Notes: generated by a model from the letters alone, not told the origin. A stretch of 64,000 nt of DNA from an uncultured Pelagibacteraceae bacterium (GCA_902581405.1 CACHOJ010000004.1:13527-77526), one strand, 5' to 3'; shown: positions 13,438 through 28,449, counted from the first letter of the stretch. Translations and numbers: made by a program.

Positions 13438-14838
13438 TTAACTACTCGAAGAAGCAACAGCTTTTTCATCTTCTTTTGCCTCCTCCATTATTTGGTAGTC
13501 TAAACCGGCCAACTCAACCTCCCTAGGGATTCTAAGTTTGCCCATTCCATTTAACACTTTCGCAATTATGTAACCTGGTATCATACCCAGAACAAAGAAC
13601 ATGATTATTGCACCAATAAACATTCCTAAAGGATTTATCGCAGCATAGTTGCTTCCATCCCACATTGCACCTACGCTATATCCTGAAGAAGGGTATCCAT
13701 TTAGTACAAACCCACATATTACAAGTCCAGCAAATCCAGCATAACCATGTACAGCTACTGCGCCAACTGCATCATCAATTTTGAACCTTCGTTCAACCCA
13801 GTAATGCAATTTGTAAGCAATAACTACTCCTATCATTCCAATAATTAATGATTGAATTGGATGATATAAGTCGTTTCCTGCAGAAGCGCATATTATTCCA
13901 GCAAGTCCACTTGAGTAAGTCCAGAAAGGATCACCTTTAGATATTACGTATCCTGCTAGCAATCCTCCAGAAAGTGACATTAAGAAATTCATTGTAATAC
14001 CACTAAGTGTTGTAGGAGTTACATATATGTTTGTTGCCGTAAAGTAAGTTACACCTTCCATGCCATACTCTGGTCCTAGGTCATAAATTGGAATATTACA
14101 CGCTGCGTAAAAACCCCAGAAACCTGTATAAATTAAGAATAATCCAACAGTTACCAACCAAGGATTTCTTGGTCCGATATTTCTAGGCTCTCCACTTGAT
14201 GAAAATTTTCCAATTCTTGGCCCCAAAACTGCTAAAACACCTAAAGCAAATCCTCCTGCTACAGCATGAATTACTCCTGATGCATAAGCATCATGATATC
14301 CGAGTAATTTTAACATCCATCCGTCAAAGTGCCATCCCCATGCAGCATCTATACTCCAAAATACAGATCCAATTGCAATCGCAAGAATTCCAAATGCAAA
14401 AGTTGTAATTCTTTCAATTACAGCACCTGATACTATTGAAGCAGCTGTCCAAGAGAATAATAAAAATGCAGCCCAAAATACTCCGCTTATATGATCACCT
14501 AAATTAATAGCCATAAGTTCACTATTTGGTAAATACCATTTAGCACTAAAAGCTGAGTCATCCGTAATCAGAGCTGTACTCTCAGTCATTATTGATGGTG
14601 CAAGACCTGGTCCAGTTGGAAATGCCCAATAAATCCACCAACCAAATAAAAACCAAGTAACTGTTACCAACGGTATCAGCATTGTGTTTTTCATTAAAGT
14701 ATGTTGATGATGTTTGTATCGGGAAGCTCCAACTTCATACATACAGAATCCTACGTGGATCAGAAACATAAGTACTACTGTTATCCAATAGTAAAATTCT
14801 GTGAATATGGTTGTCAATGCACCTAGTTCGTCAGTCAT
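13438..14838 (-). CDS. Ammonium transporter (Amt) family, divergent; putative methylamine channel
   Basis: SIVSGAVIER, DAYASGVIH and DDAVGAVAVHG (twin His), LGPRIGKF; RBS GGAGG. Confidence 0.9.
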   Translation of the reverse strand: MTDELGALTTIFTEFYYWITVVLMFLIHVGFCMYEVGASRYKHHQHTLMKNTMLIPLVTVTWFLFGWWIYWAFPTGPGLAPSIMTESTALITDDSAFSAKWYLPNSELMAINLGDHISGVFWAAFLLFSWTAASIVSGAVIERITTFAFGILAIAIGSVFWSIDAAWGWHFDGWMLKLLGYHDAYASGVIHAVAGGFALGVLAVLGPRIGKFSSSGEPRNIGPRNPWLVTVGLFLIYTGFWGFYAACNIPIYDLGPEYGMEGVTYFTATNIYVTPTTLSGITMNFLMSLSGGLLAGYVISKGDPFWTYSSGLAGIICASAGNDLYHPIQSLIIGMIGVVIAYKLHYWVERRFKIDDAVGAVAVHGYAGFAGLVICGFVLNGYPSSGYSVGAMWDGSNYAAINPLGMFIGAIIMFFVLGMIPGYIIAKVLNGMGKLRIPREVELAGLDYQIMEEAKEDEKAVASSSS

Positions 14839-14972: not shown

Positions 14973-15377
14973 CTAGAATTTTCTGTAAGCTTTTTTAAGA
15001 TCTACTAGTGGATGATTTGGAGACATTTGGAATTTTACTAACAATTCTCTAGCAATCATATCCCTATCTTGTTGATTATTTGGAAGTTTAATCTTCTTTG
15101 GAATTGTAACCCACCCATTAGCATTTCTGTCAAAAACTGCAGGTCTATCTTCTTCATATCCCATGTGAACATCTTCTAACCAATTTAAATCATCCCATCC
15201 CATTGCTTCTATGTATTTTTTTAAGAATGGTGTAATTCTTGAATAGTCTGGAAGCAGGTTAACATCATAACGATAGCCAATAGTTTGACCTATCATTTTT
15301 TCTCTAGCAGTCTCTTTTTTCTTACCTAATTGACCTTTAGTTTCTTTTTTTGCTTTTTTGTTTTTCTTTTTAGGCAT
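14973..15377 (-). CDS. Hypothetical protein in the mgs operon
   Basis: 134-aa ORF 2 nt downstream of the mgsC stop; Lys-rich N-terminus, Trp-rich core. Confidence 0.7.
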   Translation of the reverse strand: MPKKKNKKAKKETKGQLGKKKETAREKMIGQTIGYRYDVNLLPDYSRITPFLKKYIEAMGWDDLNWLEDVHMGYEEDRPAVFDRNANGWVTIPKKIKLPNNQQDRDMIARELLVKFQMSPNHPLVDLKKAYRKF

Positions 15378-15379: not shown

Positions 15380-16774
15380 TTAAATTTTATGAAAATCATC
15401 AACTCCTACAGTATGATTTGTTCCCGAAAGTGGCACTTTTGCTAAAGCAGAAGCTTCCATTGTTAAAGCGGCTAAATCTTCAGGTTCTAGTGAGTGAATA
15501 TTAGTTTTACCACACGCTCTTGCTAATAATTGAGCCTCTAAAGTCATTGTATGTAGGTAATTATACACTCTTAGAGCAGCATCATCAGGATTTAATCTTT
15601 TTCTAAGTTTAGGGTCTTGCGTAGCAACACCAACTGGACAACGACCTGTGTGACAGTGATAACAATGACCTGCAGGAACTCCCATCTCTTTCTCAAAATT
15701 AGACTCAGGAATTTCTTTATTACAATTCAAAGCTATCATTGCTCCAGTTCCAATTGCGATCGCATCAGCACCTAATGCTAATGCCTTAGCCATATCAGCG
15801 CCATCTCTTACACCACCAGCATATATTAGAGTTACTTTTCCAGTTTTACCAACATCATCAATTGCTCTTCTTGCTTCTCTAATAGCAGCTATCCCAGGAA
15901 TCCCTGTGTTAGCTGCAGCTATATGAGGGCCTGCACCTGTTGATCCTTCCATACCATCTAAATAAATTGAGTCAGGATCACATTTTGCTGCCATACGAAC
16001 ATCATCATAAACTTTTGCTGCACCAAGTTTTAATTGAATTGGAACTTTATTTTTTGTTAGTTCTCTTAATTCTTGAACTTTTAATGCTAAATCATCTGGA
16101 CCTAGCCAATCAGGGTGTCTAGCTGGAGATCTTTGATCAATACCAGCAGGCAATGATCTCATTTCTGCTACTTGGTCAGTAACTTTTTGACCCATTAAGT
16201 GACCACCCATTCCAACTTTTTGACCTTGTCCAATAAATACTTCTATCCCATCTGCAAGTTGTGCATGATGTGGATTAAAACCATATCTTGATTGAATACA
16301 TTGGTAATACCATTTTTCAGAATATCTTCTTTCATCTGGGATCATTCCTCCTTCACCAGAACATGTTGCACTTCCTGCCATCGTAGCACCTCTAGCTAAT
16401 GCAGTCTTAGCTTCATAAGATAAAGCTCCAAAACTCATTCCAGTGATATAAACTGGAATATCAAGTTCAACTGGATTTTCACATCTTGGTCCTATAACAG
16501 TTTTAGTTTCACATTTTTCTCTGTATCCTTCGATTACAAATCTTGTAAGTGTACCAGGCAAAAATACTAGGTCATCAAATGTGGGAATTTTTTTCATCAA
16601 TGCCATACCACGCATTCTGTATCTACCTAATTGCGCTTTTATATGTATGTCGTCGATTACTTCTGGAGTAAATATTGAATTATAACCTAATAAACTTTTA
16701 TTTCTTTTTGAAAATTCACTTTGACCATTGCCATTAGAATGACCATTTGTTTTTCCATTTTTCTTTTTTGCCAT
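15380..16774 (-). CDS. mgsC: FMN-binding glutamate synthase-family subunit (N-methylglutamate synthase C / GlxD)
   Basis: GMSFGALS, GEGGM, GQGQKVGMGGHLMGQKV, SPARHPD, GGVRDGADMAKALALGAD, CHTGRCPVGVATQDP. Confidence 0.85.
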   Translation of the reverse strand: MAKKKNGKTNGHSNGNGQSEFSKRNKSLLGYNSIFTPEVIDDIHIKAQLGRYRMRGMALMKKIPTFDDLVFLPGTLTRFVIEGYREKCETKTVIGPRCENPVELDIPVYITGMSFGALSYEAKTALARGATMAGSATCSGEGGMIPDERRYSEKWYYQCIQSRYGFNPHHAQLADGIEVFIGQGQKVGMGGHLMGQKVTDQVAEMRSLPAGIDQRSPARHPDWLGPDDLALKVQELRELTKNKVPIQLKLGAAKVYDDVRMAAKCDPDSIYLDGMEGSTGAGPHIAAANTGIPGIAAIREARRAIDDVGKTGKVTLIYAGGVRDGADMAKALALGADAIAIGTGAMIALNCNKEIPESNFEKEMGVPAGHCYHCHTGRCPVGVATQDPKLRKRLNPDDAALRVYNYLHTMTLEAQLLARACGKTNIHSLEPEDLAALTMEASALAKVPLSGTNHTVGVDDFHKI

Positions 16775-17628
16775 TATATAGCTCCTTTTTTCTCAGTTGG
16801 TTCTAAAGCGTCATAATTCCAAAGTTTTTTACCCGCAACGACCTTAGTCATCTGAGAAACATCAAAATTTTCGCCAATTTCAGCCACTTTAAGTTTTCTT
16901 TTTAACCAATCTATATCACTTTTTGTCATAGGTGACTCAATCGCATCACTTCCATATGATCCAATTTTTCCCCCAACATAGATTGTTCCATCATACATAG
17001 AGTCCCCAAGGTTTATACCCACATTACCTAAAACTACTATTCTTCCTCTTTGCATCATAAATCCAGTAAAAGCGCCAGCATCACCACCAATTATTATTGT
17101 GCCCCCTTTTTGGTCAATACCTGTTCTTGCACCAACACTTCCTTTGCAAATTAAATCTCCACCTCTTACTGCTGCTCCAAAACACGATCCTGCATTTTTT
17201 TCTATTACAACTTTTCCAGCCATCATATTTTCTGCACATGACCATCCAACTCTTCCATTAACTCTTACCGTAGGACCATCTATAGAACCAACTCCAAAAT
17301 AACCCAAACTCCCCTCAAAAATTAAGTTTAATTTATTCAAAATTCCAACACCTAGACTATGTTTTCCTTGAGGATTTTTTATTACAATTGTTCCAAAACC
17401 CTGACTCATCAATTCATCAATTTTTTTATTTGCTTCTTTGCAATCCATATCATTTACATCAAGTTCGGTTCTTTTATTAAAATCTACATCGTATGTTCCC
17501 CAATAATAAAAGTTTTCTGCTTCGTCTGGATTAAAAAACTTTTGTTGTGTTTTTCCTGTAAGAACTTCAGTATGAAGTCCCATTGATTGAGCTTTTGTTT
17601 TTTTCTCAGTTGTTTTTAAATTTGCCAT
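16774..17628 (-). CDS. mgsB: GXGXG beta-helix subunit (N-methylglutamate synthase B / GlxC)
   Basis: Repeated G-rich beta-helix (GRVGWSCAENMMAG, GSVGARTGIDQKGG, GFMMQRG, LGDSMYDG). Confidence 0.85.
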   Translation of the reverse strand: MANLKTTEKKTKAQSMGLHTEVLTGKTQQKFFNPDEAENFYYWGTYDVDFNKRTELDVNDMDCKEANKKIDELMSQGFGTIVIKNPQGKHSLGVGILNKLNLIFEGSLGYFGVGSIDGPTVRVNGRVGWSCAENMMAGKVVIEKNAGSCFGAAVRGGDLICKGSVGARTGIDQKGGTIIIGGDAGAFTGFMMQRGRIVVLGNVGINLGDSMYDGTIYVGGKIGSYGSDAIESPMTKSDIDWLKRKLKVAEIGENFDVSQMTKVVAGKKLWNYDALEPTEKKGAI

Positions 17629-18560
17629 ACTTTAACCTCTCCATCAAATGGATCATAAGTATCAATTTCTTGAGGAAGAACAGATCTGATTGCTATTTCT
17701 TCTGATCCCATTGCAACTAAATCATCTGACTCATATAAAACTAATGGTTTTGCTGCCATAGTGTCTTTAGCCATCCCAAGTGAATTTTTTGTTGCAACAA
17801 AGTAAGTGAATACTCCGTCAAGTCCAGATAAACTATCTTTCATACCCTCTTCAAGTGTAGCTCCATTTCTCATTTTTTCTGCTAAGTATACTGCAATCAA
17901 TTCAGAGTCACACTCTGACATAAATCTCATTCCTTTATTTTCTAAAATTCTTCTATTATTCCAATAGTTAGTTAATTGACCATTATGCACAACTGAAACA
18001 TCACTAAAAGGGTAGCCCCAAAATGGGTGAGCAGATTTTATGTCTACGCCAGACTCTGTTGCCATTCTAGCATGTCCAATTGCGTGAGTACCAACAAGAT
18101 CTCCTAAATTGTATCTATCACAAACAGTTTTTGCGTTACCTAAATCTTTAATTACTTCTAGGGATTTTCCCATTGATAGGATTTCAACTCCAGGAATGCT
18201 CTCTATTTTTTGTGAAAATTCAAGCAAATCTCCTTTATCATAGTCAATTTCATATCTTAGTGAATAGGGCAGTATTCTTTCTTCTTTTACAATCTTTGCT
18301 CCCATTTGAGAAAGATAACTATCAACGATTTTTTTTCTTTCATCATAAACTGATACATCTTCCATTACTGATGAACTACCTTCACCAACATTTTCACCAA
18401 CCTTAAATCGCATAATAAAGTTTTGACCATCTGTATCTCCATAAAGAGCATAACCAGTAGAATCCTCACCTCTATGCTTTAGTGCTTGAAGCATTCCTTG
18501 AAGTTCTTGACCTACGTTTGAAGATTTTCCTCTATGAATTAGTCCCGCAATTCCGCACAT
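17616..18560 (-). CDS. mgsA: Class II glutamine amidotransferase subunit (N-methylglutamate synthase A / GlxB)
   Basis: N-terminal MCGIAG, HRGEDSTG, GHARMATES, AHPF, VHNGQLTN. Confidence 0.87.
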   Translation of the reverse strand: MCGIAGLIHRGKSSNVGQELQGMLQALKHRGEDSTGYALYGDTDGQNFIMRFKVGENVGEGSSSVMEDVSVYDERKKIVDSYLSQMGAKIVKEERILPYSLRYEIDYDKGDLLEFSQKIESIPGVEILSMGKSLEVIKDLGNAKTVCDRYNLGDLVGTHAIGHARMATESGVDIKSAHPFWGYPFSDVSVVHNGQLTNYWNNRRILENKGMRFMSECDSELIAVYLAEKMRNGATLEEGMKDSLSGLDGVFTYFVATKNSLGMAKDTMAAKPLVLYESDDLVAMGSEEIAIRSVLPQEIDTYDPFDGEVKVWQI

Positions 18561-18585: not shown

Positions 18586-20055
18586 TTATGGTAAACAATC
18601 CAGATAAGTATCAAGATCCCATTGAGTTGTTGCACCAAGAAATCTCTCCCACTCATCATTTTTATACCAATGAAATATTTTATACATTTCATCTGGCATT
18701 GCCGATTGAATAACTTTATCTTCAGCTAAACGATCCAATGCTTCACCAAGACTTAATGGTAATTTTTTAACGTTTTTTCCAGCCTTCTGAGCTTCATAAA
18801 TATTTCTAGACTCTGGTTTTCCAGGATCAATATTATTTTTAATTCCATCATCAAAAGCTTTTAATAAACCTGCTCCCATTAAGTAAGGGTTATGCATTGA
18901 GTCTACTGATCTGTACTCAAATCTTCCTGGAGCTGAAACTCTTAGTCCACAAGTTCTATTTTGATATCCCCAGTCAGCATAAACTGGTGCCCAAAAACCT
19001 TGGTCCCATAATCTTCTATAAGAATTTACAGTTGATGATCCAATAGCAGTTAAAGCTGGAAGGTGTTTCATTACACCACCAATTGATTTTAAGCCGATTT
19101 TACCTGGCAGCTGAACATCTTTTGTATCAGGCATAAAAGTATTTGTTCCACCTTCAACGTAAGTAAACACTTCATCCATACCTGGTAAAGATTTATGGCC
19201 TAATTTATTTACTTTGTCTTTTCCACCAGTCCATAAAGACATATTTGTATGACAACCACTTGCAGAGACTCCCATAAACGGTTTAGTCATAAAGCAAGCA
19301 ATCAAATTAAACTCTCTCGCAACCTGTGCACAAATTTGTCTATAAGTAGATAATCTGTCTGCATTTCTTAAAACATCATCATACGTCCAGTTTAATTCTA
19401 ATTGTCCTGGTGCATCCTCATGATCACCCTGTATCATGTCAAAACCCATAGCTCTCGCGTACTCCATAACTCTCATAAATACAGGTCTTAAAGATTCAAA
19501 TTGATCTATGTGATAACAATAAGGTTTAGAGAACCCTTTCCCTGTTGGAGTTCCATCCTCATTTCTAGTTAACCACATCATTTCTGGCTCCGTTCCCACT
19601 CTGAGTTGGTAACCATGTTTTTTCTTAAATTCTTTAGCGATTATTCTTAAATTTCCTCTGCAATCAGATGTAAGATGTCCACCTGGATTTTCTCTCTCTT
19701 CTCTATTTCTAAAACAAGTAACAAATACTCGAGCTACTTTTTTATCCCAGGGTAATTGACAAAAAGTCTCTGGATCTGGAATACCAACAAGTTCTTTTGC
19801 TTCAGGACCATATCCAATATAGTTATTGTGACGATCTAAAAATAAATTTGCAGTTGCTCCATAAACTAATTGAAAACCTTTTTCACAAGTTCTTTCCCAA
19901 TGATCTGCGGGAATTCCTTTACCAACAACTCTTCCTGTTACTGATATGAATTGAAAAAAAATATAATCAATTTTAAGTTCGTTTATTTTAGCTCTAACTT
20001 GTTTAACCAGTTTGGCTCTGCCTGGTTGATTAACATGCTTTTCTAGATCAGTCAT
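18586..20055 (-). CDS. Second glutamine synthetase-like gamma-glutamyl ligase
   Basis: GTEPE, DHEDAPGQLELNW, FMTKPF..SASGCHTN, WGYQNRT..RVSAPGRFEYRSVD; RBS AAGGGGG. Confidence 0.85.
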   Translation of the reverse strand: MTDLEKHVNQPGRAKLVKQVRAKINELKIDYIFFQFISVTGRVVGKGIPADHWERTCEKGFQLVYGATANLFLDRHNNYIGYGPEAKELVGIPDPETFCQLPWDKKVARVFVTCFRNREERENPGGHLTSDCRGNLRIIAKEFKKKHGYQLRVGTEPEMMWLTRNEDGTPTGKGFSKPYCYHIDQFESLRPVFMRVMEYARAMGFDMIQGDHEDAPGQLELNWTYDDVLRNADRLSTYRQICAQVAREFNLIACFMTKPFMGVSASGCHTNMSLWTGGKDKVNKLGHKSLPGMDEVFTYVEGGTNTFMPDTKDVQLPGKIGLKSIGGVMKHLPALTAIGSSTVNSYRRLWDQGFWAPVYADWGYQNRTCGLRVSAPGRFEYRSVDSMHNPYLMGAGLLKAFDDGIKNNIDPGKPESRNIYEAQKAGKNVKKLPLSLGEALDRLAEDKVIQSAMPDEMYKIFHWYKNDEWERFLGATTQWDLDTYLDCLP

Positions 20056-20122
20056 ATTCCCCCTTAAGAATTTTTAGACCAAAAAGTTAACTGAAAATAA
20101 AACATCTGTCTACTTAGATAAA

Positions 20123-21448
20123 TTAGCTCCAAGGAAACGGACTATTAGATGTAGGGTGTAATTCCCCTTTCTCGTAACGGTTGAATCTAAAAGGTTTTAG
20201 TAAATCACTTTCTGTTCCAAGAATTTCTTTTGCAACTAGTTCTCCAACTCCAATCATTTTGTAACCATGGTTAGAGTCTGCAATCATATAAACGTTTTCT
20301 AAAAATCTATCAAATATCGGAAATGAGTCTGGTGTCATGCATCCAAGACCACCCGAAGGTCCTTTTCTATATAAATCTGATTTTCCCTCGAACCTTTTTT
20401 GACAGTGAGCTAAAGCTGAACACCACATGTCATTAAAAGCCTCGGTTGTTTGATATTCAGGTGACTCTATTCCGTAAGGATCAACATTCACTTCGTCAAA
20501 ATGTTTATCTACAATGTAAGGTGATGTTCCACCCTGCACACCAAGACCGTCAATATCAGGTTTGTAATATATTCCCCAAATTTTATCTGTAATTAATTTT
20601 TTAGTTTTGTCTGAATATAAAGGAGCTGTTGAATCAACATGAATTACTGGTGGCTGCTCACCGTTATTCATTTTTAAAAAATCAGCTTCGACACCAATTA
20701 CGCCTTCTTGAAGCATCCAATATTTCCACATGTCAGTTTCATGCATCTTACCATCTTTACCTTTAATGTGAGCAGTTTTTGGAAGTTCTAGCATATTCCA
20801 AAAATCTCTTGCCCAAGGACCTGCCCCTACAACTACTTGTTCGCATTCAATAGTTCCTCTGTCTGTTTCAACCCCAGTTACAGCTTTACTGTTACTTCCT
20901 CTTTTAAAACCTGTTACCTTAATGCCTTTGATAACTTCAACGCCATTTGAGGTAGATTTATTTTCAAGTGCTTTAATTGAGTCTTTATTAAATGCATATC
21001 CACCTTTTTTTTCATGAAGAACAGAAGTTATACCTTTTGCCTGCCAATCATCAAACATACCCTTCATGTAGTTCATGCAATCTTTTTCGCCTTCTATAAA
21101 TTCTGAGTCATAACCAATCGCTTTTTGCTGTTCATAAATTGTAGCGACATCTGCGTGCATTACTTCTGGAGAAATCTGTAAATAACCTACTGCATTATAT
21201 TTAAAAGCTTTAGGATCGCTCTCCCAAACTGAGACTGAATGAGCCATTAATTCTCTCATGGCAGGTTGAAAATAATTATTTCTTACAACTCCACAAGCAA
21301 TACCACTTGCACCCGCTGCAGTATCTTTTTTTTCTAAGACTACAATATCACCTGGATTTTTATACTTTTCAGATAATTTCCAAGCAGTACTTAGTCCGTG
21401 AATTCCTCCACCAACTATTACTACTTTTGCTTTTGTCGGTAATGACAT
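20123..21448 (-). CDS. FAD-dependent oxidoreductase (DAO/sarcosine oxidase-like)
   Basis: VVIVGGGIHG dinucleotide fold, GASGIACGVVR, GAGPW, TPDSFPI, HGYKMIGVG. Confidence 0.85.
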   Translation of the reverse strand: MSLPTKAKVVIVGGGIHGLSTAWKLSEKYKNPGDIVVLEKKDTAAGASGIACGVVRNNYFQPAMRELMAHSVSVWESDPKAFKYNAVGYLQISPEVMHADVATIYEQQKAIGYDSEFIEGEKDCMNYMKGMFDDWQAKGITSVLHEKKGGYAFNKDSIKALENKSTSNGVEVIKGIKVTGFKRGSNSKAVTGVETDRGTIECEQVVVGAGPWARDFWNMLELPKTAHIKGKDGKMHETDMWKYWMLQEGVIGVEADFLKMNNGEQPPVIHVDSTAPLYSDKTKKLITDKIWGIYYKPDIDGLGVQGGTSPYIVDKHFDEVNVDPYGIESPEYQTTEAFNDMWCSALAHCQKRFEGKSDLYRKGPSGGLGCMTPDSFPIFDRFLENVYMIADSNHGYKMIGVGELVAKEILGTESDLLKPFRFNRYEKGELHPTSNSPFPWS

Positions 21449-21545
21449 TCTAAAACATTATTTTTTGGCAGAGGTTAAATATATAATTTTTTTTATATAT
21501 AAAAATTAGAAATAAAAAGTTATACAACCTCAAATTTACCAACTA

Positions 21546-21896
21546 TTAAAAACTTAAATTTTTAAGAGTGGACAAATAATCGTTAAATTCCTCAATAAAA
21601 GAGGCGCTTGGTTTAATATATTTTTTTCTTTGATCTTCTGAAGTTTTCTCTAAATAAAAAAACCCTTTTTCACATGCTTCATTAATAATTAAAGCAGATT
21701 TTGGTCGTGAAGTTTTAAATAATTTTGTTTTTAATTCTTCTACAGATAAATTTTGCTTTAATTTAAATGCAGACATTACAAGCAGCATCATATGATAGTG
21801 TGAAGGTGATTTTCTAAAAAAGTAGTTGCTAGAAGTATGAGAAAGTTTCATTTGATCTTCCCAAAATTCTAATAGATCTTTTGTTGATTTAGGCAT
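21546..21896 (-). CDS. Putative winged-helix (MarR-like) DNA-binding protein
   Basis: 116 aa; SRPKSALIINEACEKGFF..EKTSEDQRKKYI resembles MarR helix plus wing 'D.R'; TAATG overlap with tdm. Confidence 0.55.
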   Translation of the reverse strand: MPKSTKDLLEFWEDQMKLSHTSSNYFFRKSPSHYHMMLLVMSAFKLKQNLSVEELKTKLFKTSRPKSALIINEACEKGFFYLEKTSEDQRKKYIKPSASFIEEFNDYLSTLKNLSF

Positions 21897-24235
21897 TATG
21901 ATCTAACTTTAGTTTTCTTAGGATCGTAATGAGGAAATCCTACAATTTTAGCTGGAATTCTTTTTTGATGACCATCTATTTTTCCAATTTCAACTTCATT
22001 TCCTATTTCTGAATGACCTACATCTATTCTGCATAAGGCAATATTTTTATTTAACGTTGGTGAAATACACCCGCTTGTAATCACTCCAACTTGAGATCTT
22101 CCAATGTGTACGCAATCACCATGGTTTGCTTGTTCTCTACCAATCAATTCTAACCCAACTAATTTTTTTTGAGGATTTTCTTTTCTCTTAACAAGGTTTT
22201 CTCTTCCTATAAAATCTTCTGTTTTAGATTTTAAAGGCACCGAAAAACCAATCCCTGCTTCAAAGGGATCTTGTTGTCCGTCAAATTCATTACCAAATAA
22301 TATTAAACCAGCTTCAATTCTTAAAAGGTCTAAAGCAGCAAAACCAGCAGGTATCAAACCTTCATCTTTACCTGCTTCCATTAATTTATCCCAAACAGTT
22401 GGTGCATCGCTTGGATGACACCAAATTTCAAAACCAAGTTCACCAGTATAACCAGTCCGTGAAACAATTAATGGTATTCCATTTAATTCTTCTAATCTAC
22501 AAATACTAAATCTAAACCATTCCAATTCAGATATAGAGGGCTGTGTAGGAGGTGCAAAAATTATTTTTTCTAAAATTTTTCTACTTTTTGGTCCTTGTAA
22601 AGATAGGTTATTTATTTGGTCTGTAGAATTTTTTATATGAACTTTATAGTTTTTCTTTTTTGCTTGTTCTTTAAGCCATTCCCCACCATATTCATCTCCA
22701 CAAACCCATCTAAAACCATGATCACTAAGTTTTAACAAAGTTCCATCATCAAACATATTACCATTTTCATAGCACATTGCTGAATAAACAATTTGGCCTA
22801 CTGAAAGTTTTTTAACATTTCGAGTTAAAGTGTAATTCATTAATTCTTCAGCATCAGGACCAAGAATTTCAAACTTTCTCAAAGAAGATAAATCAATTAA
22901 AACAGCTCTTTCTCTACAAGCATTATATTCGTTAATAACGCCATGTTTTGTGTAATCATTTGGTAACCAAAAACCTCTGGCATCAACAAAGTTTCTGGTT
23001 AGTTTTGAAGTTCTTTCATAAAACCCTGTGTTCCTTGTAAGTTTATTTTCTGAATCTGTTTTCATTCTAAATCCATAAGATTTTGTAAATTCTTTACTCT
23101 TTTCATAAGTTCTAACAAAAATATCAGTAGGGTTCCATCCATTACAGCTATCAATATCGCTAGGACAAGCTGTAGTACCACACGTTAAATCTTTAAGTGC
23201 TTTAAAAATTACATAATCGCCTGGTCTTGCATATGACTCGTCAGAGGTTACTGAATTAAGACCTCCAGCAGATGTATTAAAAAAAAGATTTATAGCTTGC
23301 CAACCTTTTTTTTTCTCTACTCCATATTTTTCCATAGAGACATTTAAATTATCAGAACAATTTGCATGCCCAAAATATCCTGAATCCTCATAGTACTTTG
23401 AAGTACAAGCTAAGTTGAATGTATCGTGTATACCAACAGTATCTCTTATAACTTCTATTAAAGGTTCATGGTCAGTGTCATAAAATTTTGAATATAGACC
23501 TGGACCAGGAAAAGTGTGACCCATAAAAGTTCTAGTTGTTTGCCAATCAAGACCTCTCTCCAAACCTTTTTCTAGTTTAGCTGTATCATATGCGACAAAG
23601 TCTGAACACTGTCTTCCTGTTGGTGTTATAATTTGAATGTAATCACCAGCTTTGACTTGATAGCCAGTTGCAGTTTTTCTATCAATATTTACTTCATGAT
23701 CCGGATCATAAATTGGATCTGGTATTAATGAAAATTCTTTATCATTATTTTTAATTTTAGCTCTTTTTATTATTATTGTTAAATCTGATGGTGGATTTTG
23801 ATCATGAACAAGCATGTCATCTGCAGGTGCTGCAAATATGCAATAACATTTATCTTTAGATTTTAAATTTATTTTTTCTCCAGCTTTAGTATTTTTATCA
23901 AACAATATTGCTGACTTAGCTTTTTCAATTTTTAAATTTCTTTTGTTTAGTTGAAGCAAAGCCTGCATAGAGCTTTCTTCTTTTTTAAAAAGTATTTTTT
24001 TTATTTCAGAAGAATTTTTATTTTCTTTTAAATTTAATAGACCTAACTCTGAGTTTCCGTCTTTATCAAAAGAATTGATTTCACAAATTTGATTTCCTTC
24101 ATTATTAATTATTTTAATTTCGTCATCAGGAAAAATTTGAATTCCAGTAATTCCACCTGCATTGACAATATATCTTTCAACTCCAGGTGGTAGTACATTT
24201 AAACCAGGTTCTTTTATTGCTAAACTAGTTTGCAT
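21896..24235 (-). CDS. tdm: Trimethylamine N-oxide demethylase (DUF1989 + GcvT domains)
   Basis: DUF1989-type Cys motifs (GRQCSDF, FNLACT..GHANCSDN..TACPSD) fused to a GCV_T domain (SRTGYTGELGFE, LRIEAGL); divergent from tmoXWV; start adjusted to ATG 24235. Confidence 0.85.
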   Translation of the reverse strand: MQTSLAIKEPGLNVLPPGVERYIVNAGGITGIQIFPDDEIKIINNEGNQICEINSFDKDGNSELGLLNLKENKNSSEIKKILFKKEESSMQALLQLNKRNLKIEKAKSAILFDKNTKAGEKINLKSKDKCYCIFAAPADDMLVHDQNPPSDLTIIIKRAKIKNNDKEFSLIPDPIYDPDHEVNIDRKTATGYQVKAGDYIQIITPTGRQCSDFVAYDTAKLEKGLERGLDWQTTRTFMGHTFPGPGLYSKFYDTDHEPLIEVIRDTVGIHDTFNLACTSKYYEDSGYFGHANCSDNLNVSMEKYGVEKKKGWQAINLFFNTSAGGLNSVTSDESYARPGDYVIFKALKDLTCGTTACPSDIDSCNGWNPTDIFVRTYEKSKEFTKSYGFRMKTDSENKLTRNTGFYERTSKLTRNFVDARGFWLPNDYTKHGVINEYNACRERAVLIDLSSLRKFEILGPDAEELMNYTLTRNVKKLSVGQIVYSAMCYENGNMFDDGTLLKLSDHGFRWVCGDEYGGEWLKEQAKKKNYKVHIKNSTDQINNLSLQGPKSRKILEKIIFAPPTQPSISELEWFRFSICRLEELNGIPLIVSRTGYTGELGFEIWCHPSDAPTVWDKLMEAGKDEGLIPAGFAALDLLRIEAGLILFGNEFDGQQDPFEAGIGFSVPLKSKTEDFIGRENLVKRKENPQKKLVGLELIGREQANHGDCVHIGRSQVGVITSGCISPTLNKNIALCRIDVGHSEIGNEVEIGKIDGHQKRIPAKIVGFPHYDPKKTKVRS

Positions 24236-24322
24236 ATATAATCTAAATATGCCTAATCTATTATAAAGTATCAACAAATTTATATATAAATTTTATATAT
24301 ACATTTGTATCTATTTTGCTTA

Positions 24323-24351
24323 TTGACTGTCACTTTAATAGAGAAGATAAT
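24323..24351 (+). promoter_or_regulatory. Sigma70-like promoter for tmoX
   Basis: TTGACT-N17-GATAAT, 30 nt upstream of the ATG at 24382. Confidence 0.6.
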
Positions 24352-24381
24352 TTACTCCTTAATATTAAGAAAGGGGAAATA

Positions 24382-25335
24382 ATGAAAAAACTTTTATCAA
24401 TTTTTTCTGCTTTTCTAATCACATTTGTTTTTAGTTTTACAACTGCAAATGCTGATAAAAGCGGTGTTGTTAAAATCCCAACACATAACTGGTCTAGTCA
24501 ATTAGTTGGAGCTGAAGTTGTAGGTGAGCTTTTAAAAATGGTTGGAGAGAAAGTTGAATATATCAACATGGACTCTCAAGCAGTTTACCAAGCCATGGCT
24601 GATGGAGATATAGATTTAGTTCATGAAATTTGGGAAGGTGCTTTTGGTGCATCATACGAAAAAGCTAAAGCTGGTGGAGGAATTGAAGAAATTCTTACAC
24701 ATGATGCAGTAACAAGAGAAGATTGGTGGTATCCAAACCATGTAGAGAAATTATGTCCAGGTTTACCTGACTGGAAAGCACTTAATAAATGTGCTGACCT
24801 ATTTGCTAGAGCTGACTCAGGCGGAAAAGGAGTTTTCATTGGTGGTCCAGTTGACTGGTTAAAGCACGATGCTGAAAAAGTTGAAGCATTAGGAATGAAC
24901 TTTATGGTTAAAAATGCAGGATCGGCTGATGCAATTTGGGCAGAGTTAGATGCCGGTGTTGCTCAAGGTAAAGCAGTTGTAGTTTTTAACTGGTCGCCAA
25001 ACTTCATAGGTGCAAAATATCCAGGAAAATTTGTTGAGTTTCCAAAGCATGACCCTGCTTGTACAAAGGATCCAGCTTGGGGAATTAATAAAACAGCACT
25101 ATATGACTGTGGTAACCCAGCTAGTGGTTATTTAAAATTAGCAGTAAATGCTGACTTTAAGAATAATCATCCAAATGGATATAAATTACTGAAACAGATG
25201 AACTTTTCTGGTCCAGACATCGACAAGATGGCAAATTACAAAGACACAGACGGACTTGAAGTATCTGCTGCCGCTCAGAAATGGTTAAATGATCATAAAT
25301 CTAAGTGGGAGCCTTGGGTTGCTTCATCAAAATAA
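24382..25335 (+). CDS. tmoX: TMAO ABC transporter substrate-binding protein
   Basis: RBS AAGGGG; signal peptide MKKLLS..ANA; OpuAC-family features (NWSSQ, HEIWEG, REDWWYP, CPGLPDWKALNKC, FNWSPN); adjacent to tdm. Confidence 0.8.
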   Translation: MKKLLSIFSAFLITFVFSFTTANADKSGVVKIPTHNWSSQLVGAEVVGELLKMVGEKVEYINMDSQAVYQAMADGDIDLVHEIWEGAFGASYEKAKAGGGIEEILTHDAVTREDWWYPNHVEKLCPGLPDWKALNKCADLFARADSGGKGVFIGGPVDWLKHDAEKVEALGMNFMVKNAGSADAIWAELDAGVAQGKAVVVFNWSPNFIGAKYPGKFVEFPKHDPACTKDPAWGINKTALYDCGNPASGYLKLAVNADFKNNHPNGYKLLKQMNFSGPDIDKMANYKDTDGLEVSAAAQKWLNDHKSKWEPWVASSK

Positions 25336-25351
25336 GTAATTGAAAATATAT

Positions 25352-25389
25352 AAACGAACCGATTTTTATAAGTCGGTTCGTTTTTTTTT
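25352..25389 (+). terminator. Rho-independent terminator/attenuator after tmoX
   Basis: AAACGAACCGATT...AGTCGGTTCGTTT hairpin followed by a T-run. Confidence 0.85.
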
Positions 25390-25415
25390 ATTTTATGATA
25401 AATTAAAATTTAAGC

Positions 25416-26444
25416 ATGAACAAAGAAGCGAAAATATCCTGCAAAAATATCTGGAAGTTATACGGTGAAGCTCCAGAAAAGTTTCTAAAGAATACAAATA
25501 ACAACCCTACAACAGAAGAGATTAAAAAAAATAATTATATACCTGCTGTAAGAGATGCATCAATAGATGTTAATACAGGTGAAATACTAGTTATTATGGG
25601 ACTAAGCGGTTCAGGAAAATCAACATTGCTTAGATGTATGTCAAAATTAATTGAACCAACTCATGGTCAGGTATTTTTTGAAGGAAATGATTTGTTAAAA
25701 GCGTCTGAAAAAGAGTTAATAGATATAAGACGGCATAAGATGGGTATGGTGTTCCAACACTTTGCACTTTTGCCTCACCGAACAGTTTTGCAAAATGTTG
25801 CATTTCCACTTGAGGTTCAAGGACAAGAAATTCAAAAAAGAGAGGAAAGAGCAAAAGATGTAATAAAGCTAGTAGGTTTAGAAGGAAGAGAAAAATATTA
25901 TCCAAGGGAATTATCAGGAGGACAACAACAAAGAGTTGGTCTTGCGAGATCTTTAGCAGTTGAACCAGATGTTTGGTTTTTAGATGAACCTTTTTCTGCA
26001 TTAGATCCATTAATAAGAAAAGAAATGCAAAACGAGTTTTTAAGACTTCAAAGTATGTTAAAGAAAACGATTGTTTTTATTACTCATGATTTTGACGAGG
26101 CAATTAGATTAGCAGATAGGATAGCAATAATGTATGAGGGATTAATTGTTCAAGTAGGAACACCCGAAGAATTAATTACAAAACCAGCTACTGATTATGT
26201 TGCAGAATTTACAAAAGATATACCAAGATCAAAATTATTAAATGCAGAAAGCATTATGAATGAAAAAGATAAAAAACCTTACGAAAACAAAGTTAATTAT
26301 AGTGATAAAATTGAAAAAATTGCATCAAAAGTTTTAAAGTCAGAAAGTATTTTTTCTGTAGTTGATGACAACAAAGAGGTTATAGGTTCATTGAGTAAAA
26401 AAGAATTAATTAAAGCTTTATTTGCTGAAGACAAAAATGAATAA
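25416..26444 (+). CDS. tmoW: Quaternary amine ABC transporter ATP-binding protein
   Basis: GLSGSGKST, LSGGQQQRVGLAR, DEPFSALDP, FITHD. Confidence 0.85.
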   Translation: MNKEAKISCKNIWKLYGEAPEKFLKNTNNNPTTEEIKKNNYIPAVRDASIDVNTGEILVIMGLSGSGKSTLLRCMSKLIEPTHGQVFFEGNDLLKASEKELIDIRRHKMGMVFQHFALLPHRTVLQNVAFPLEVQGQEIQKREERAKDVIKLVGLEGREKYYPRELSGGQQQRVGLARSLAVEPDVWFLDEPFSALDPLIRKEMQNEFLRLQSMLKKTIVFITHDFDEAIRLADRIAIMYEGLIVQVGTPEELITKPATDYVAEFTKDIPRSKLLNAESIMNEKDKKPYENKVNYSDKIEKIASKVLKSESIFSVVDDNKEVIGSLSKKELIKALFAEDKNE

Positions 26445-28449
26445 AATTAAAACCATTTTTAGGGGAAAATTTTTTTTTATATTTGCGCCTTTCATTTTCT
26501 TGTGGCTCTTACGTTATATTATTCCAAATTATACTATTTCATCTAAAACACCTCATTGGGCTTACATTCCACCAAAAAGTTGCTTAGGTGGCTGTGGATC
26601 AATAGATGGTCTTATACCTTTTGTGGATTGGACAAATGCATTAATTCAATTTCTTAGAAAGTACGAAATATTCGGTTTGTTTACTTTTAGAGATTTTACA
26701 AGAGGTATTGCCAACTATGTTGATAAATTTTTAGATTTTACAGAAGCAGTTTTACACAAAGGTTTTCCAAGTTATGATGTAGGACCTTTACCTTGGATAT
26801 TTATTTTAACTCTTACAATTATATTGGGATTTTATTTAAGAGGCTGGAGATTAGCTTTATTGGGAGGCGCATGTTTTTCATATTTAATATTATTTAGCAA
26901 AAGAGGGATTTGGGAGCTATCTATGAAATCTTTGGCAGCCATCTCTGTTTCAGCACCTCTAGCAGCATTAATCGGACTGTGTTTAGGTATACTTGCGGTA
27001 AAAAGAAAAAGATTTGCAAACTTTTTATGGCCAATGCTTAACATTTTACAATCGTTACCTCATTTTTCATATTTAATTTTAGTAGTTATATTTGTTGGAA
27101 TAGGCACAAAAGCCGGAGTGATAGCAACTGTTATATTTGCATTTCCTCCCATGGCTAGATTAACGATATTAGGCTTACAAAATATATCTCAAGAAATAAA
27201 AGAGGCAGGTGTCATGGCTGGCTGCACAAAGTGGCAAATGTTATTTAAAGTTGAGATTCCAGCAGCTAGGTCTCCAATAATGTTAGGGATAAATCAGGTT
27301 ATTATGCAATGTCTTGCTATGATTGTTATAGCAGCATTTATTGGTCAACCAGGTCTTGGTCATGATCTATTAATTAGGTTACAAGGTTTAAGATTAGGGG
27401 AAGCTTTTGAAATAGGTGTTGCAGTTGTTTTGATTGCAATTACACTTGATAGGTATAGTCAAGCTTTAGCATTAAAAGAACCAGAGAGAAGAGAGGGAAA
27501 TTTTGTAAAGAGAAATCCATATTTATGCGCAACTTTTTTTGCAATTATAATTTGCTCTATCTTAGTTTTTCTTTTTCCATTTTTTAATGAATATCCAAAG
27601 GAGTTAACAGTTTCAGCATCTGTATATTTAGATAATGCCATTAAATCATTTACAAGATCTTTGTTTGTACCGTTAGGAATATTTAGAGATTGGATGTTAA
27701 TATATTTTTTGATGCCTCTTAAAGCTGTATTTCAATCTATGCCATGGACTGGAGTAATTTTATTTGTCGGAGCAATTGGATGGAAACTTGGTAAAATGAG
27801 ACTAGCTTTGACAGTTATGCTGTTTGTATTTTTTATTGCTTCATCTGGCTACTGGGTAAGGGCAATGATTACGGTGTACATGGTTTTTGCTTCATTAGTT
27901 ATTTGTGCTCTAATTGGAATACCATTAGGAATATGGGCATCTAAGAAAGAAAGTAGAACAAAGATTGTTTTAAATATTTGTGATATTTTTCAAACATTTC
28001 CGTCATTTATATACTTGCTTCCAGCAATAATGTTATTTCAAATTAGTGATGTATCAGCAATATTCGCAATTGTAATATATTCCTCTATTCCAATGATTAG
28101 ATATACGATATTTGGATTAAGAGGTGTTCCTCAACATATTATCGAAGCCGCCATAACATCAGGATGTACCCAAAGACAACTACTTTGGAAAGTAAGAATG
28201 CCTTTAGCTTTTCCAGAGATTATATTAGGTGCAAATCAAACTTTAATGTTCTCATTGTTTATGGTTATGATTGCCGGTTTTATTGGAACAGTTGATTTGT
28301 CTCAAGAAATTTTTAGAGCTTTATCTTTTAGCGATGGGGGAAAAGGATTGATTATTGGTTTATGTGTTGCTTTTATTGGTTTAACTGCTGATAGATTATT
28401 AGTGGAATGGTCAAAACAAATGAAATTAAAATTAGGGTTTAAAAATTAA
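26437..28449 (+). CDS. tmoV: Double-domain ABC permease
   Basis: Two ProW-like halves, each with an EAA loop (EAGVMAGC, EAAITSGC); ATG 26437 overlaps the tmoW stop. Confidence 0.82.
   Translation: MNKIKTIFRGKFFFIFAPFIFLWLLRYIIPNYTISSKTPHWAYIPPKSCLGGCGSIDGLIPFVDWTNALIQFLRKYEIFGLFTFRDFTRGIANYVDKFLDFTEAVLHKGFPSYDVGPLPWIFILTLTIILGFYLRGWRLALLGGACFSYLILFSKRGIWELSMKSLAAISVSAPLAALIGLCLGILAVKRKRFANFLWPMLNILQSLPHFSYLILVVIFVGIGTKAGVIATVIFAFPPMARLTILGLQNISQEIKEAGVMAGCTKWQMLFKVEIPAARSPIMLGINQVIMQCLAMIVIAAFIGQPGLGHDLLIRLQGLRLGEAFEIGVAVVLIAITLDRYSQALALKEPERREGNFVKRNPYLCATFFAIIICSILVFLFPFFNEYPKELTVSASVYLDNAIKSFTRSLFVPLGIFRDWMLIYFLMPLKAVFQSMPWTGVILFVGAIGWKLGKMRLALTVMLFVFFIASSGYWVRAMITVYMVFASLVICALIGIPLGIWASKKESRTKIVLNICDIFQTFPSFIYLLPAIMLFQISDVSAIFAIVIYSSIPMIRYTIFGLRGVPQHIIEAAITSGCTQRQLLWKVRMPLAFPEIILGANQTLMFSLFMVMIAGFIGTVDLSQEIFRALSFSDGGKGLIIGLCVAFIGLTADRLLVEWSKQMKLKLGFKN

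What the first reader, a model, noticed from the sequence alone, without database searches (positions are those of the whole stretch)
18586..24235. Candidate Dmm-independent dimethylamine pathway: FAD oxidase + second GS-like ligase between tdm and mgsABC
Seen: on the minus strand the order is tdm, wHTH gene, 441-aa sarcosine-oxidase-like flavoprotein, 489-aa GS-like ligase, mgsABC. A separate canonical gmaS lies downstream, and the window has no dimethylamine monooxygenase (dmmABCD) or tmm genes. Established: Tdm turns TMAO into dimethylamine (DMA) plus a C1 unit; GmaS/Mgs/Mgd handle monomethylamine; SAR11 have been reported to lack Dmm, leaving DMA-to-MMA unexplained. Inference: the two unassigned enzymes fill that gap. 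One route is glutamylation of DMA by the second ligase followed by flavin-dependent N-demethylation to gamma-glutamylmethylamide; another is direct DMA oxidation by the flavoprotein.
Basis: partly seen in the sequence, partly recalled or inferred. Interest (0 to 1): 0.85.

Follow-up and report, generated by a model that had tools for sequence, protein, structure and literature searches.

The report
Candidate dimethylamine pathway replacing Dmm
Next to the gene that makes dimethylamine, this SAR11-type ocean bacterium carries a conserved, unstudied copy of the methylamine-breakdown genes that turns up where the known dimethylamine enzyme is missing, so it likely supplies the long-sought, still untested step by which these very abundant bacteria consume dimethylamine.

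Summary
The genes are real and in the stated order, but the unit is larger than the two flagged genes. The 'mgsABC' behind the ligase is not the canonical one. It is a separate clade (31/35/51% identical to canonical MgsA/B/C) that follows this ligase, with a 134-aa orphan, in 147 of 150 loci long enough to show it. Among 401 Alphaproteobacteria, 37 have tdm: 27 carry this module, 5 carry dmmC, none both. In 39 Pelagibacterales, ligase and tdm occur in the same 14 genomes. The ligase keeps the GmaS amine site and lacks GlnA's ammonia residues. Best reading (untested): DMA is glutamylated, MgsABC2 makes N,N-dimethylglutamate, the flavoprotein demethylates it to N-methylglutamate, and SoxBDAG finishes. 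Against: 12 of 39 module genomes lack tdm, the flavoprotein is missing from 4 of 38, and nothing has been assayed. I found no paper describing the module. The scan already noted it on other DNA (8 earlier notes listed); I had reached this reading before that look-up.

The parts
21896..24235 (-). tdm, TMAO demethylase (makes DMA plus a C1 unit)
   Evidence: NF053776 1098.7 bits, cut-off 1100; DUF1989 + GCV_T + GCV_T_C
21546..21896 (-). 116-aa possible HTH regulator, seen in SAR11 loci; outside SAR11 a GntR/FCD regulator is often nearby instead
   Evidence: Atlas lead only; 16 GntR/FCD proteins among 81 neighbours scanned
20123..21448 (-). Stand-alone FAD oxidoreductase of the sarcosine-oxidase fold (by gene order the counterpart of SAR11_1304); proposed N,N-dimethylglutamate demethylase
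   Evidence: PF01266; model pLDDT 89.5, top fold match sarcosine oxidase beta subunit, TMq 0.73; R56/Y59/H394/K397 invariant in 134 rows
18586..20055 (-). Second amine gamma-glutamyl ligase (counterpart of SAR11_1305 by gene order); proposed gamma-glutamyl-dimethylamide synthetase
   Evidence: below the cut-offs of TIGR03105, TIGR00653 and NF045547; GmaS amine-site residues kept, W355 at the GlnA E327 position; own clade
17616..18560 (-). MgsA2, Ntn amidotransferase subunit of a paralogous N-methylglutamate-synthase-like enzyme
   Evidence: GATase_6/7; N-terminal Cys and oxyanion Asn-Gly invariant, about 31% identical to canonical MgsA
16774..17628 (-). MgsB2, GXGXG subunit
   Evidence: PF01493; about 35% identical to canonical MgsB
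15380..16774 (-). MgsC2, FMN subunit keeping the three-Cys iron-sulfur motif
   Evidence: PF01645; clade with SH-aLRT 100, separate from canonical MgsC
14973..15377 (-). 134-aa orphan that always follows mgsC2; function unknown
   Evidence: no family hit; 66-81% identical across 28 diverse loci; last gene of the block in 147 of 150 long-enough loci
13438..14838 (-). Amt-family transporter, often beside the module; possible methylamine/DMA importer (inferred)
   Evidence: PF00909; neighbour in many non-SAR11 loci
11648..12973 (-). Canonical gmaS (methylamine ligase), here without its usual mgsABC
   Evidence: TIGR03105 621 bits; close match to GmaS structure 7CQL
24316..28449 (+). Betaine/TMAO-family ABC transporter (TmoXWV-like), divergent from tdm
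   Evidence: OpuAC, ABC_tran, BPD_transp_1; substrate not tested
38051..39727 (-). fhs, formate-tetrahydrofolate ligase (C1 oxidation)
   Evidence: NF010030 over cut-off
39856..44962 (+). soxBDAG, likely N-methylglutamate dehydrogenase (MgdABCD), the proposed last step
   Evidence: TIGR01373 and TIGR01372 over cut-off, soxD 112.6 against 116.5; its closest relatives lie next to canonical mgsABC in G424 and G751

Best explanation
The ligase, MgsA2B2C2, the 134-aa protein and usually the flavoprotein form a conserved second copy of the N-methylglutamate pathway that likely breaks down dimethylamine without oxygen-dependent Dmm, by a predicted, untested route through gamma-glutamyl-dimethylamide and N,N-dimethylglutamate. 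Inferred steps: (1) Tdm makes DMA from TMAO (established for the family). (2) The ligase joins DMA to glutamate with ATP. (3) MgsA2 cleaves the amide, and FMN-bound MgsC2 transfers the dimethylamino group to C2 of the glutamate/2-oxoglutarate skeleton, giving N,N-dimethylglutamate. (4) The flavoprotein removes one methyl group, giving N-methylglutamate plus formaldehyde; where it is absent a SoxBDAG enzyme may do both demethylations. (5) SoxBDAG/Mgd removes the last methyl group to tetrahydrofolate. Free methylamine would not be an intermediate. MgsABC2 probably also accepts GmaS's product, because many genomes, this one included, keep gmaS but have no canonical mgsABC. Shown here: the genes, their linkage, their distribution and their residues. 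Not shown: any activity.
For: Linkage: the ligase is followed directly by mgsA2 in 78 of 78 SAR11, 70 of 70 metagenome and 38 of 40 alphaproteobacterial loci long enough to show it; the full five-gene block is present in 70 of 70, 41 of 41 and 36 of 39 (GC 0.33-0.71). Co-occurrence: of 401 Alphaproteobacteria, 27 of 37 tdm carriers have the module against 12 of 364 others. Exclusion: among the 37 tdm carriers, 27 module only, 5 dmmC only, 0 both, 5 neither (p=6e-4, kin not independent); by family 17/4/0/1. Among the 29 with Tdm over the curated cut-off: 24/4/0/1. Genus g274 holds one genome with dmmC and no module (G439) and one with the module and no dmmC (G761). The dmmC query comes from a verified dmmD-A-B-C cluster. 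No dmmC match in any of 200 ligase loci. Pelagibacterales: 14 of 39 have both ligase and tdm, 25 have neither. Ligase: keeps all seven GmaS methylamine-site residues and the Arg312 equivalent (PMC7948447) and is its own clade. Canonical GmaS has a Km of 16 mM for DMA against 27 uM for MMA, so a dedicated ligase would be needed. MgsC2 is its own clade, and further Mgs clades sit beside their own GS-like ligases in 5 of 8 loci examined, which suggests each Mgs works on its own ligase's product. Flavoprotein: R56, Y59 and K397 align with MSOX R52, Y55 and K348, which bind the substrate carboxylate (PMC12582975); they are invariant in 134 rows. A SoxB/MgdA-type gene was found in 37 of 38 module genomes. 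A DMFase-family gene, a possible second DMA source, was found in 15 of 28 module genomes against 3 of 30 controls, and lies within about 2 kb of the module in two genomes without tdm. HTCC1062 grows on TMAO as sole nitrogen source without dmm (PMC8918994).
Against: No enzyme of the module has been assayed. Module and dmmC do not overlap in the whole sample, but that alone is expected by chance (P=0.49); the signal exists only among tdm carriers and rests on 5 dmmC genomes in 4 families. The sample takes about four genomes per family at most, so Roseobacters, where Dmm is common, are barely represented. 12 of 39 module genomes lack tdm, and 7 of those 12 also have no DMFase-family match. In SAR11, tdm and the module share one island, so their co-occurrence there is not independent. 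The flavoprotein was not found in 4 of 38 module genomes, one of them a single-contig genome 99% complete (G449), and was found in 2 of 7 dmmC genomes without the module. In HTCC1062 under nitrogen limitation SAR11_1304 protein rose while SAR11_1305 and 1308 fell to 0.67 and 0.66 (PMC3870248). Ligase relatives at 52-63% identity sit with P450s, aldehyde dehydrogenases and class-I amidotransferases, so this ligase family handles more than one amine. The active-site comparison shows no feature that specifically points to DMA. DMFase-family proteins are often multi-copy and of unknown substrate, and the 30 controls were taken in handle order, not at random.
Confidence: 0.52

Rival explanations
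1. The module handles another amine (another secondary amine, ethylamine or similar) and travels with tdm only because both suit the same amine-rich niche; DMA stays unused or goes by another route.
For: 12 of 39 module genomes lack tdm, 7 of them with no DMFase match either. GS-like + MgsABC modules have diversified into at least four clades. Close ligase relatives serve other amine pathways. No residue points specifically to DMA.
Against: It does not explain why 28 of 29 genomes with canonical Tdm have exactly one of module or dmmC and none both, or why the module lies within 10 kb of tdm in varied orientations in 33 of 80 metagenome loci.
Confidence: 0.18
2. One reading: the ligase makes gamma-glutamyl-dimethylamide, the flavoprotein removes one N-methyl from the amide to give gamma-glutamylmethylamide, and MgsABC2 works as an ordinary Mgs.
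For: 17 of 38 module genomes have gmaS but no canonical MgsC, as does this genome, so MgsABC2 probably accepts gamma-glutamylmethylamide. The flavoprotein is followed by the ligase in 135 of 146 hits.
Against: The flavoprotein keeps the alpha-carboxylate clamp, which would place the alpha-amine, not the distant amide, at the flavin (inference). Amide nitrogens are poor substrates for amine oxidases (recalled chemistry). The flavoprotein was not found in 4 of 38 module genomes, and 14 of 38 keep both Mgs sets.
Confidence: 0.1
3. One reading: the flavoprotein oxidises free DMA to MMA, and the ligase plus MgsABC2 are a second MMA pathway.
For: Smith et al. 2013 proposed that SAR11_1304 frees primary amines and found it induced by nitrogen limitation. 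The ligase keeps every GmaS amine-site residue.
Against: The exclusion with dmmC follows the ligase and Mgs2, not the flavoprotein. DMA has no carboxylate for the invariant Arg/Tyr/Lys clamp. 31 of 38 module genomes already have gmaS.
Confidence: 0.08
4. The whole set is a parallel methylamine pathway with different kinetics (ligase = GmaS2, Mgs2 = Mgs, flavoprotein = single-subunit N-methylglutamate dehydrogenase) and has nothing to do with DMA.
For: A source names 4 of the 120 listed flavoprotein relatives 'methylglutamate dehydrogenase subunit A'. Canonical mgsABC is missing from 24 of 38 module genomes. The carboxylate clamp also fits N-methylglutamate.
Against: It leaves the exclusion with dmmC unexplained: all 7 dmmC genomes use canonical gmaS + MgsC and none the module. 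The flavoprotein scores 88 against a SoxB cut-off of 529, is never followed by soxA/soxG, and 37 of 38 module genomes have a true SoxB-type gene.
Confidence: 0.12

Closest known systems
N-methylglutamate pathway: GmaS + MgsABC + MgdABCD (Methylocella silvestris, Methyloversatilis universalis, Ruegeria pomeroyi; GmaS structure 7CQL)
   Same: Same parts and order: amine gamma-glutamyl ligase with the GmaS amine site and flap Trp, Ntn amidotransferase, GXGXG and FMN subunits, and a flavin N-demethylase.
   Different: The ligase is 28% identical to the window's GmaS and below the TIGR03105 cut-off. MgsA2/B2/C2 are 31/35/51% identical to the canonical set and form their own clade. There is an extra 134-aa gene and a stand-alone flavoprotein. 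The module is linked to tdm and not found with dmmC.
Dimethylamine monooxygenase DmmDABC (Ruegeria pomeroyi, PMC5520151)
   Same: Proposed to fill the same step after Tdm; complementary distribution among tdm carriers.
   Different: No homology. Dmm is a haem/NADPH/O2 enzyme that releases free MMA; the module would use ATP and glutamate and release no free MMA (inferred).
Monomeric sarcosine oxidase (1EL5, 1ZOV), sarcosine oxidase beta subunit (1VRQ, 2GAG) and dimethylglycine oxidase (1PJ5)
   Same: Same fold (TMq 0.67-0.74); carboxylate-binding Arg/Tyr/Lys and the His before the Lys are kept.
   Different: About 17-20% identity; no Cys315 or Arg49 equivalent for covalent FAD; no folate-binding domain; no soxDAG partners.
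SAR11_1304 / SAR11_1305 / SAR11_1308 of 'Ca. Pelagibacter ubique' HTCC1062 (PMC3870248, PMC3160333)
   Same: Same gene order in the papers' tables (1303 gcvT-like, 1304 sox, 1305 glnT, 1308 gltB2, 1310 amt, 1313-1316 glxBCD-glnT, 1317 ygeX). The match is by gene order, not by sequence comparison.
   Different: The passages read treat them as a monomeric sarcosine oxidase of uncertain function, a class III GS and a glutamate synthase subunit. They do not treat them as one pathway or link the ligase and Mgs2 to DMA.

Membership tests
Glutamine synthetase GlnA (ligase) | Glu327 flap | tested here: not met
   W355 aligns with E327 of this genome's GlnA and W301 of its GmaS; Trp in 196 of 196 rows
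Glutamine synthetase GlnA (ligase) | Asp50' ammonium-binding residue | tested here: not met
   Y65 stands opposite the Asp in the alignment to 8TFB; Tyr in 196 of 196 rows
Glutamine synthetase GlnA (ligase) | TIGR00653 score over cut-off | tested here: not met
   237.9 against 429.15; a canonical glnA lies on contig C1
GmaS (ligase) | Amine site K30', Y147, Q175, D177, E179, E186, N188 and catalytic R312 | tested here: met
   K46, Y181, Q209, D211, E213, E220, N222, R367, each in at least 195 of 196 rows
GmaS (ligase) | TIGR03105 over cut-off and placement in the GmaS clade | tested here: not met
   301 against 469.6; separate clade in a quick tree of 43 rows
GmaS (ligase) | Methylamine as preferred substrate | not testable with these tools
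   needs kinetics
gamma-glutamylputrescine synthetase PuuA (ligase) | NF045547 over cut-off | tested here: not met
   215.4 against 650
N-methylglutamate synthase MgsABC | Three-gene Ntn amidotransferase / GXGXG / FMN architecture with N-terminal Cys | tested here: met
N-methylglutamate synthase MgsABC | Orthology with the gmaS-linked canonical set | tested here: not met
   MgsC2 clade (SH-aLRT 100) apart from the canonical clade (99), quick tree of 29 rows; both sets coexist in 14 of 38 module genomes
N-methylglutamate synthase MgsABC | Makes N-methylglutamate | not testable with these tools
   needs an assay
Monomeric sarcosine oxidase (flavoprotein) | Sarcosine-oxidase fold and R52/Y55/K348 carboxylate clamp | tested here: met
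   residue mapping goes through one MSOX-type protein and the profile alignment is weak overall (probability 20%), though both motif regions align and agree with the alignment to the beta subunit
Monomeric sarcosine oxidase (flavoprotein) | Covalent FAD at Cys315 (with Arg49) and TIGR01377 over cut-off | tested here: not met
   G367 and G53 at those positions; 40.1 against 479.65. The role of Cys315 and Arg49 is recalled, not from a call.
SoxB / MgdA beta subunit (flavoprotein) | TIGR01373 over cut-off and operon with soxDAG | tested here: not met
   87.6 against 529.45; 0 of 146 hits followed by soxA or soxG
Tdm | DUF1989 + aminomethyltransferase domains, NF053776 cut-off | tested here: inconclusive
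   domains present; 1098.7 against 1100, like most SAR11 copies (1082-1181)
DmmDABC | DmmC (PF11927) and DmmA (PF22290) in the genome | tested here: not met
   no match; genome 78% complete
134-aa orphan | Any known family or fold | tested here: inconclusive
   no Pfam or NCBIfam hit; model pLDDT 71

The most novel reading that the evidence does not exclude
A previously undescribed, oxygen-independent pathway breaks down dimethylamine through gamma-glutamyl-dimethylamide and N,N-dimethylglutamate. It uses three unassigned enzymes (a secondary-amine glutamyl ligase, an N,N-dimethylglutamate synthase with a possible fourth small subunit, and a stand-alone demethylase). It is present in most tdm-carrying SAR11 and occurs in more alphaproteobacterial families than Dmm itself (17 against 4 among tdm carriers sampled). 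The published 'DMA bottleneck' of the surface ocean would then largely be an annotation gap.
Probability: 0.5. Interest if true: 0.92.

Novelty: new variant of a known kind. Interest (0 to 1): 0.78.

Why it matters
Lidbury et al. 2017 concluded that SAR11's lack of dmmDABC creates a genetic bottleneck that lets DMA accumulate and feed marine aerosol. Smith et al. 2013 left SAR11's DMA route as an open question. Gao et al. 2022 showed that HTCC1062 grows on TMAO as sole nitrogen source and supposed an unknown Dmm isoenzyme. This module names the candidate genes and intermediates and can be tested with one ligase assay and one complementation in a harmless laboratory strain. If true, it changes the estimate of how many ocean bacteria consume DMA, adds new metabolites and enzyme activities, and gives a better marker gene than dmm.

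Tried and rejected
Complex prediction of MgsC2 with the 134-aa protein returned no answer (score 0.00); it says nothing either way. Fold search of the 134-aa model found no match at Z 5 or more (best 3.5), and the Atlas gave only unnamed clusters. Expression: contigs of four marine RNA libraries from four studies cover 27-30 of 30 bins of window 11600-23800, but contigs cannot show strand or level, DNA may be present and no silent control was laid, so this is not used as evidence. The promoter/terminator scan gave no more sites than shuffles (41 against 53.2; 6 against 5.4). The flavoprotein has no plasmid match at 1e-30. The ligase's 8 plasmid matches are 39-54% identical; the 5 loci examined lack mgsABC2. 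The careful ligase tree did not finish, so only quick trees are cited. The single genome-contig scan returned only SAR11, so non-SAR11 loci came from the metagenome scan and genome searches. The idea that the flavoprotein is MgdA was considered and rejected (no soxDAG linkage, low SoxB score). A third Mgs-like set in the dmmC genome G439 was checked in case it was Mgs2; it falls outside the Mgs2 clade. A recalled link between Paracoccus sp. TOH and piperazine breakdown found no supporting paper and is not used. Literature searches for the module or its intermediates found no description; the library holds only Creative-Commons PMC papers and bioRxiv, and no supplements were opened, so a subscription paper or supplementary table could have been missed.

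Full report
Observation. The ORF list shows, on the minus strand, tdm (21896-24235), a 116-aa gene, a 441-aa flavoprotein (20123-21448), a 489-aa GS-family protein (18586-20055), three glutamate-synthase-like genes (15380-18560), a 134-aa orphan, an Amt transporter and gmaS (11648-12973). Family scans agree: Tdm scores 1098.7 against a cut-off of 1100, gmaS passes TIGR03105, the 489-aa protein passes no GS-family cut-off, and the flavoprotein passes no sarcosine-oxidase cut-off. The window also holds fhs and soxBDAG, and the genome holds a canonical glnA on another contig. Related loci are all Pelagibacteraceae. No DmmC, DmmA, FMO/Tmm or old-yellow-enzyme match was found in the genome, which is 78% complete.

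The correction. The three genes behind the ligase are not the canonical mgsABC. Of 64 SAR11 loci showing both amt and gmaS, 12 carry a second set between them, about 31/35/51% identical to the window's. A quick tree of 29 MgsC-like rows puts the window's protein in its own clade (SH-aLRT 100), apart from the canonical clade (99) and from two further groups. I call the window's set MgsABC2. MgsA2 keeps the N-terminal Cys and oxyanion residues, and MgsC2 keeps the three-Cys motif. This genome has no canonical set beside gmaS. That is common: canonical MgsC was found in only 7 of 14 module-bearing Pelagibacterales, and is missing from single-contig genomes such as G771 and G775.

The conserved unit. 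I fetched 80 SAR11 loci, 80 metagenome loci centred on non-SAR11 ligases and the loci around the ligase in the Alphaproteobacteria sample. Where the contig was long enough, the ligase was followed directly by mgsA2 in 78 of 78, 70 of 70 and 38 of 40 loci, and by the whole block mgsA2-B2-C2-orf134 in 70 of 70, 41 of 41 and 36 of 39. The two genomes where mgsA2 does not follow (G465, G760) hold a lone or paralogous ligase. The flavoprotein was in the locus in 79 of 80, 30 of 80 and 32 of 40; tdm in 71 of 80, 33 of 80 and 7 of 40; dmmC in none of the 200. Outside SAR11, tdm sits upstream, downstream or divergent, so the link is not one inherited gene order. In a quick tree of 43 rows, the module-linked ligases form one clade (99) that also holds the lone G465 copy; relatives at 52-63% identity lie outside it, and the two annotated ones at 52-54% sit with a P450, aldehyde dehydrogenases and class-I amidotransferases.

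The profile. The same 401 Alphaproteobacteria (400 at 90% completeness or more, plus this genome; about four per family at most) were searched for Tdm, the ligase and DmmC from a cluster verified as dmmD-A-B-C. Tdm-type genes were found in 37, the ligase in 41 (39 with mgsA2), DmmC in 7. The module was found in 27 of 37 tdm carriers and 12 of 364 others. Among the 37: module only 27, dmmC only 5, both 0, neither 5 (Fisher p=6e-4); by family 17, 4, 0 and 1. Four of the five with neither have a sub-cut-off or partial Tdm-like gene 43-44% identical to the window's. Among the 29 over the curated cut-off the split is 24, 4, 0, 1. One genus holds both states. Kin are not independent, and over all 401 genomes zero overlap is expected by chance (P=0.49), so the signal rests on the tdm carriers and on few dmmC genomes. 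In 39 Pelagibacterales the ligase and tdm were found in the same 14 genomes, but they share an island there.

Follow-up in 52 of the 401 genomes (all ligase, tdm or dmmC carriers other than this one). The flavoprotein was found whole in 33 of 38 module genomes and as a contig-end fragment in one more; it was not found in G449, G462, G470 and G674, and was found in 2 of 7 dmmC genomes. gmaS was found in 31 of 38 module genomes and 7 of 7 dmmC genomes; canonical MgsC in 14 of 38 and 7 of 7. So 17 of 38 keep gmaS without canonical MgsC, which suggests MgsABC2 also takes GmaS's product. A SoxB/MgdA-type gene was found in 37 of 38 (this does not separate Mgd from sarcosine oxidase). Following a lead from an earlier scan note, a DMFase-family gene was found in 15 of 28 module genomes searched (5 of the 12 without tdm) against 3 of 30 controls, and lies beside the module in G569 and G759. 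Seven of the 12 module genomes without tdm have no identified DMA source.

Active sites. Wang et al. (PMC7948447, passages) name the GmaS amine site and note that GmaS has Trp at the GS Glu flap and no Asp50'. The ligase keeps all of these residues in at least 195 of 196 rows, and has W355 opposite E327 of this genome's GlnA and Y65 opposite the Asp50' equivalent. It is therefore an amine ligase, not an ammonia GS. The same paper gives GmaS a Km of 16 mM for DMA against 27 uM for MMA; it also reports turnover with trimethylamine, which cannot form an amide, so the DMA figure may overstate real ligation (my inference). The flavoprotein model (pLDDT 89.5) matches sarcosine oxidase beta subunits, proline dehydrogenase, dimethylglycine dehydrogenase/oxidase and MSOX. 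Through an MSOX-type protein, R56, Y59 and K397 map to MSOX R52, Y55 and K348, which PMC12582975 (passages) says bind the substrate's carboxyl group; they are invariant in 134 rows. The Cys315 and Arg49 positions are Gly, so FAD is probably non-covalent (role recalled). This points to an N-methyl amino acid as substrate, not free DMA or a distant amide.

Mechanism. By analogy with the methylamine route and with dimethylglycine to sarcosine to glycine, the most likely route is: DMA to gamma-glutamyl-dimethylamide (ligase), to N,N-dimethylglutamate (MgsABC2), to N-methylglutamate (flavoprotein, or SoxBDAG where it is absent), to glutamate plus methylene-THF (SoxBDAG). That FMN-dependent Mgs exchanges amines through an imine at C2 is recalled, not from a call; a secondary amine would go through an iminium. 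Every step after Tdm is inferred. I put about 0.7 on the module handling DMA by some route and about 0.5 on this route. One published result runs against a tight unit: in nitrogen-limited HTCC1062, SAR11_1304 protein rose while SAR11_1305 and 1308 fell (PMC3870248, passages).

Literature. Seen as passages only: PMC5520151 (dmmDABC absent from all SAR11, 'bottleneck'), PMC3870248 (SAR11_1304 of uncertain function, DMA route left open), PMC3160333, PMC7948447, PMC13390433 (2026, Tdm and Dmm given as the route, dmmA mutant blocked), PMC12582975. PMC8918994 was seen as passages and one whole section (growth on TMAO as sole N source, unknown Dmm isoenzyme supposed). The match to SAR11_1303-1317 is by gene order in those tables. 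Searches found no paper that describes the module or the intermediates; subscription papers and supplements were not covered.

Earlier scan notes. The look-up by sequence listed 8 notes on other genomes that describe the same module as a DMA candidate. My reading was recorded before that call, and the notes are not counted as evidence. One gave the DMFase lead.

Verdict. A real, widely conserved, uncharacterised paralog of the N-methylglutamate pathway with a good distributional case for replacing Dmm. It is a new variant of a known kind, addresses a gap stated in print since 2013, and can be settled by simple assays. Interest 0.78.

Noticed in passing
window 12973-13438; L001-L080: Canonical mgsABC is missing between amt and gmaS here and in 52 of 64 SAR11 loci that show both genes, while gmaS is kept. 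Many SAR11 would then depend on MgsABC2 for methylamine too.
   Followed up: yes
L289-L296 (G439, G092, G596, G735, G435, G599, G759, G569): Two further groups of MgsABC-like sets (50-53% identical in MgsC to both known sets); 5 of the 8 loci have their own GS-like ligase (27-30% identical) nearby. They may be further amine-specific modules. In G092 one lies about 11 kb from a Tdm-like paralog.
   Followed up: partly
L275, L276, L277, L280, L287 (G092, G112, G625, G036, G596): A Tdm-like paralog class scoring 1000-1065 bits (43-44% identical to the window's Tdm), in four of these loci beside a different ABC transporter; substrate unknown.
   Followed up: no
window 24316-28449: The ABC transporter divergent from tdm is only about 43/55/40% identical to the one at the same place in most SAR11 loci but 87-98% identical in L059 and L070: two transporter types alternate at this site.
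   Followed up: no
L254:4931-5530, L260:3825-4400, L106:8463-9017: A roughly 190-aa protein with no Pfam hit and a similar N-terminal region recurs just beside the module outside SAR11.
   Followed up: no
L236:1400-3760, L237:14902-17259: DMFase-family large-subunit genes within about 2 kb of the module in two genomes without tdm.
   Followed up: partly
L081, L082 (Paracoccus and Ruegeria plasmids), L085 (Gordonia plasmid): Ligase relatives (52-54%; 40% in L085) sit with a P450 or flavoprotein oxidoreductase; in L081 and L082 also with a second GS-like gene and class-I amidotransferases. These look like glutamylation routes for other amines.
   Followed up: partly
L094, L298 (G366, G755), L095 (G181): The flavoprotein occurs alone, without the ligase, in two dmmC genomes of one genus and in one genome of another class, so it may have a role outside the module.
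   Followed up: partly
window 13159-13186 and about 13199-13426 (-): A G+C-rich inverted repeat and a short (about 75 aa) ORF lie between amt and gmaS, read from the sequence.
   Followed up: no
L003, L285, L286 against L017, L229, L104: Some canonical MgsC proteins have lost the three-Cys iron-sulfur motif while others keep it; MgsC2 keeps it.
   Followed up: no
window 53773-63249: A second methylated-compound cluster: an aminomethyltransferase, a betaine-type transporter, a homocysteine methyltransferase-like gene, an 801-aa flavoprotein with an aminomethyltransferase domain and a Rieske-type oxygenase subunit.
   Followed up: no
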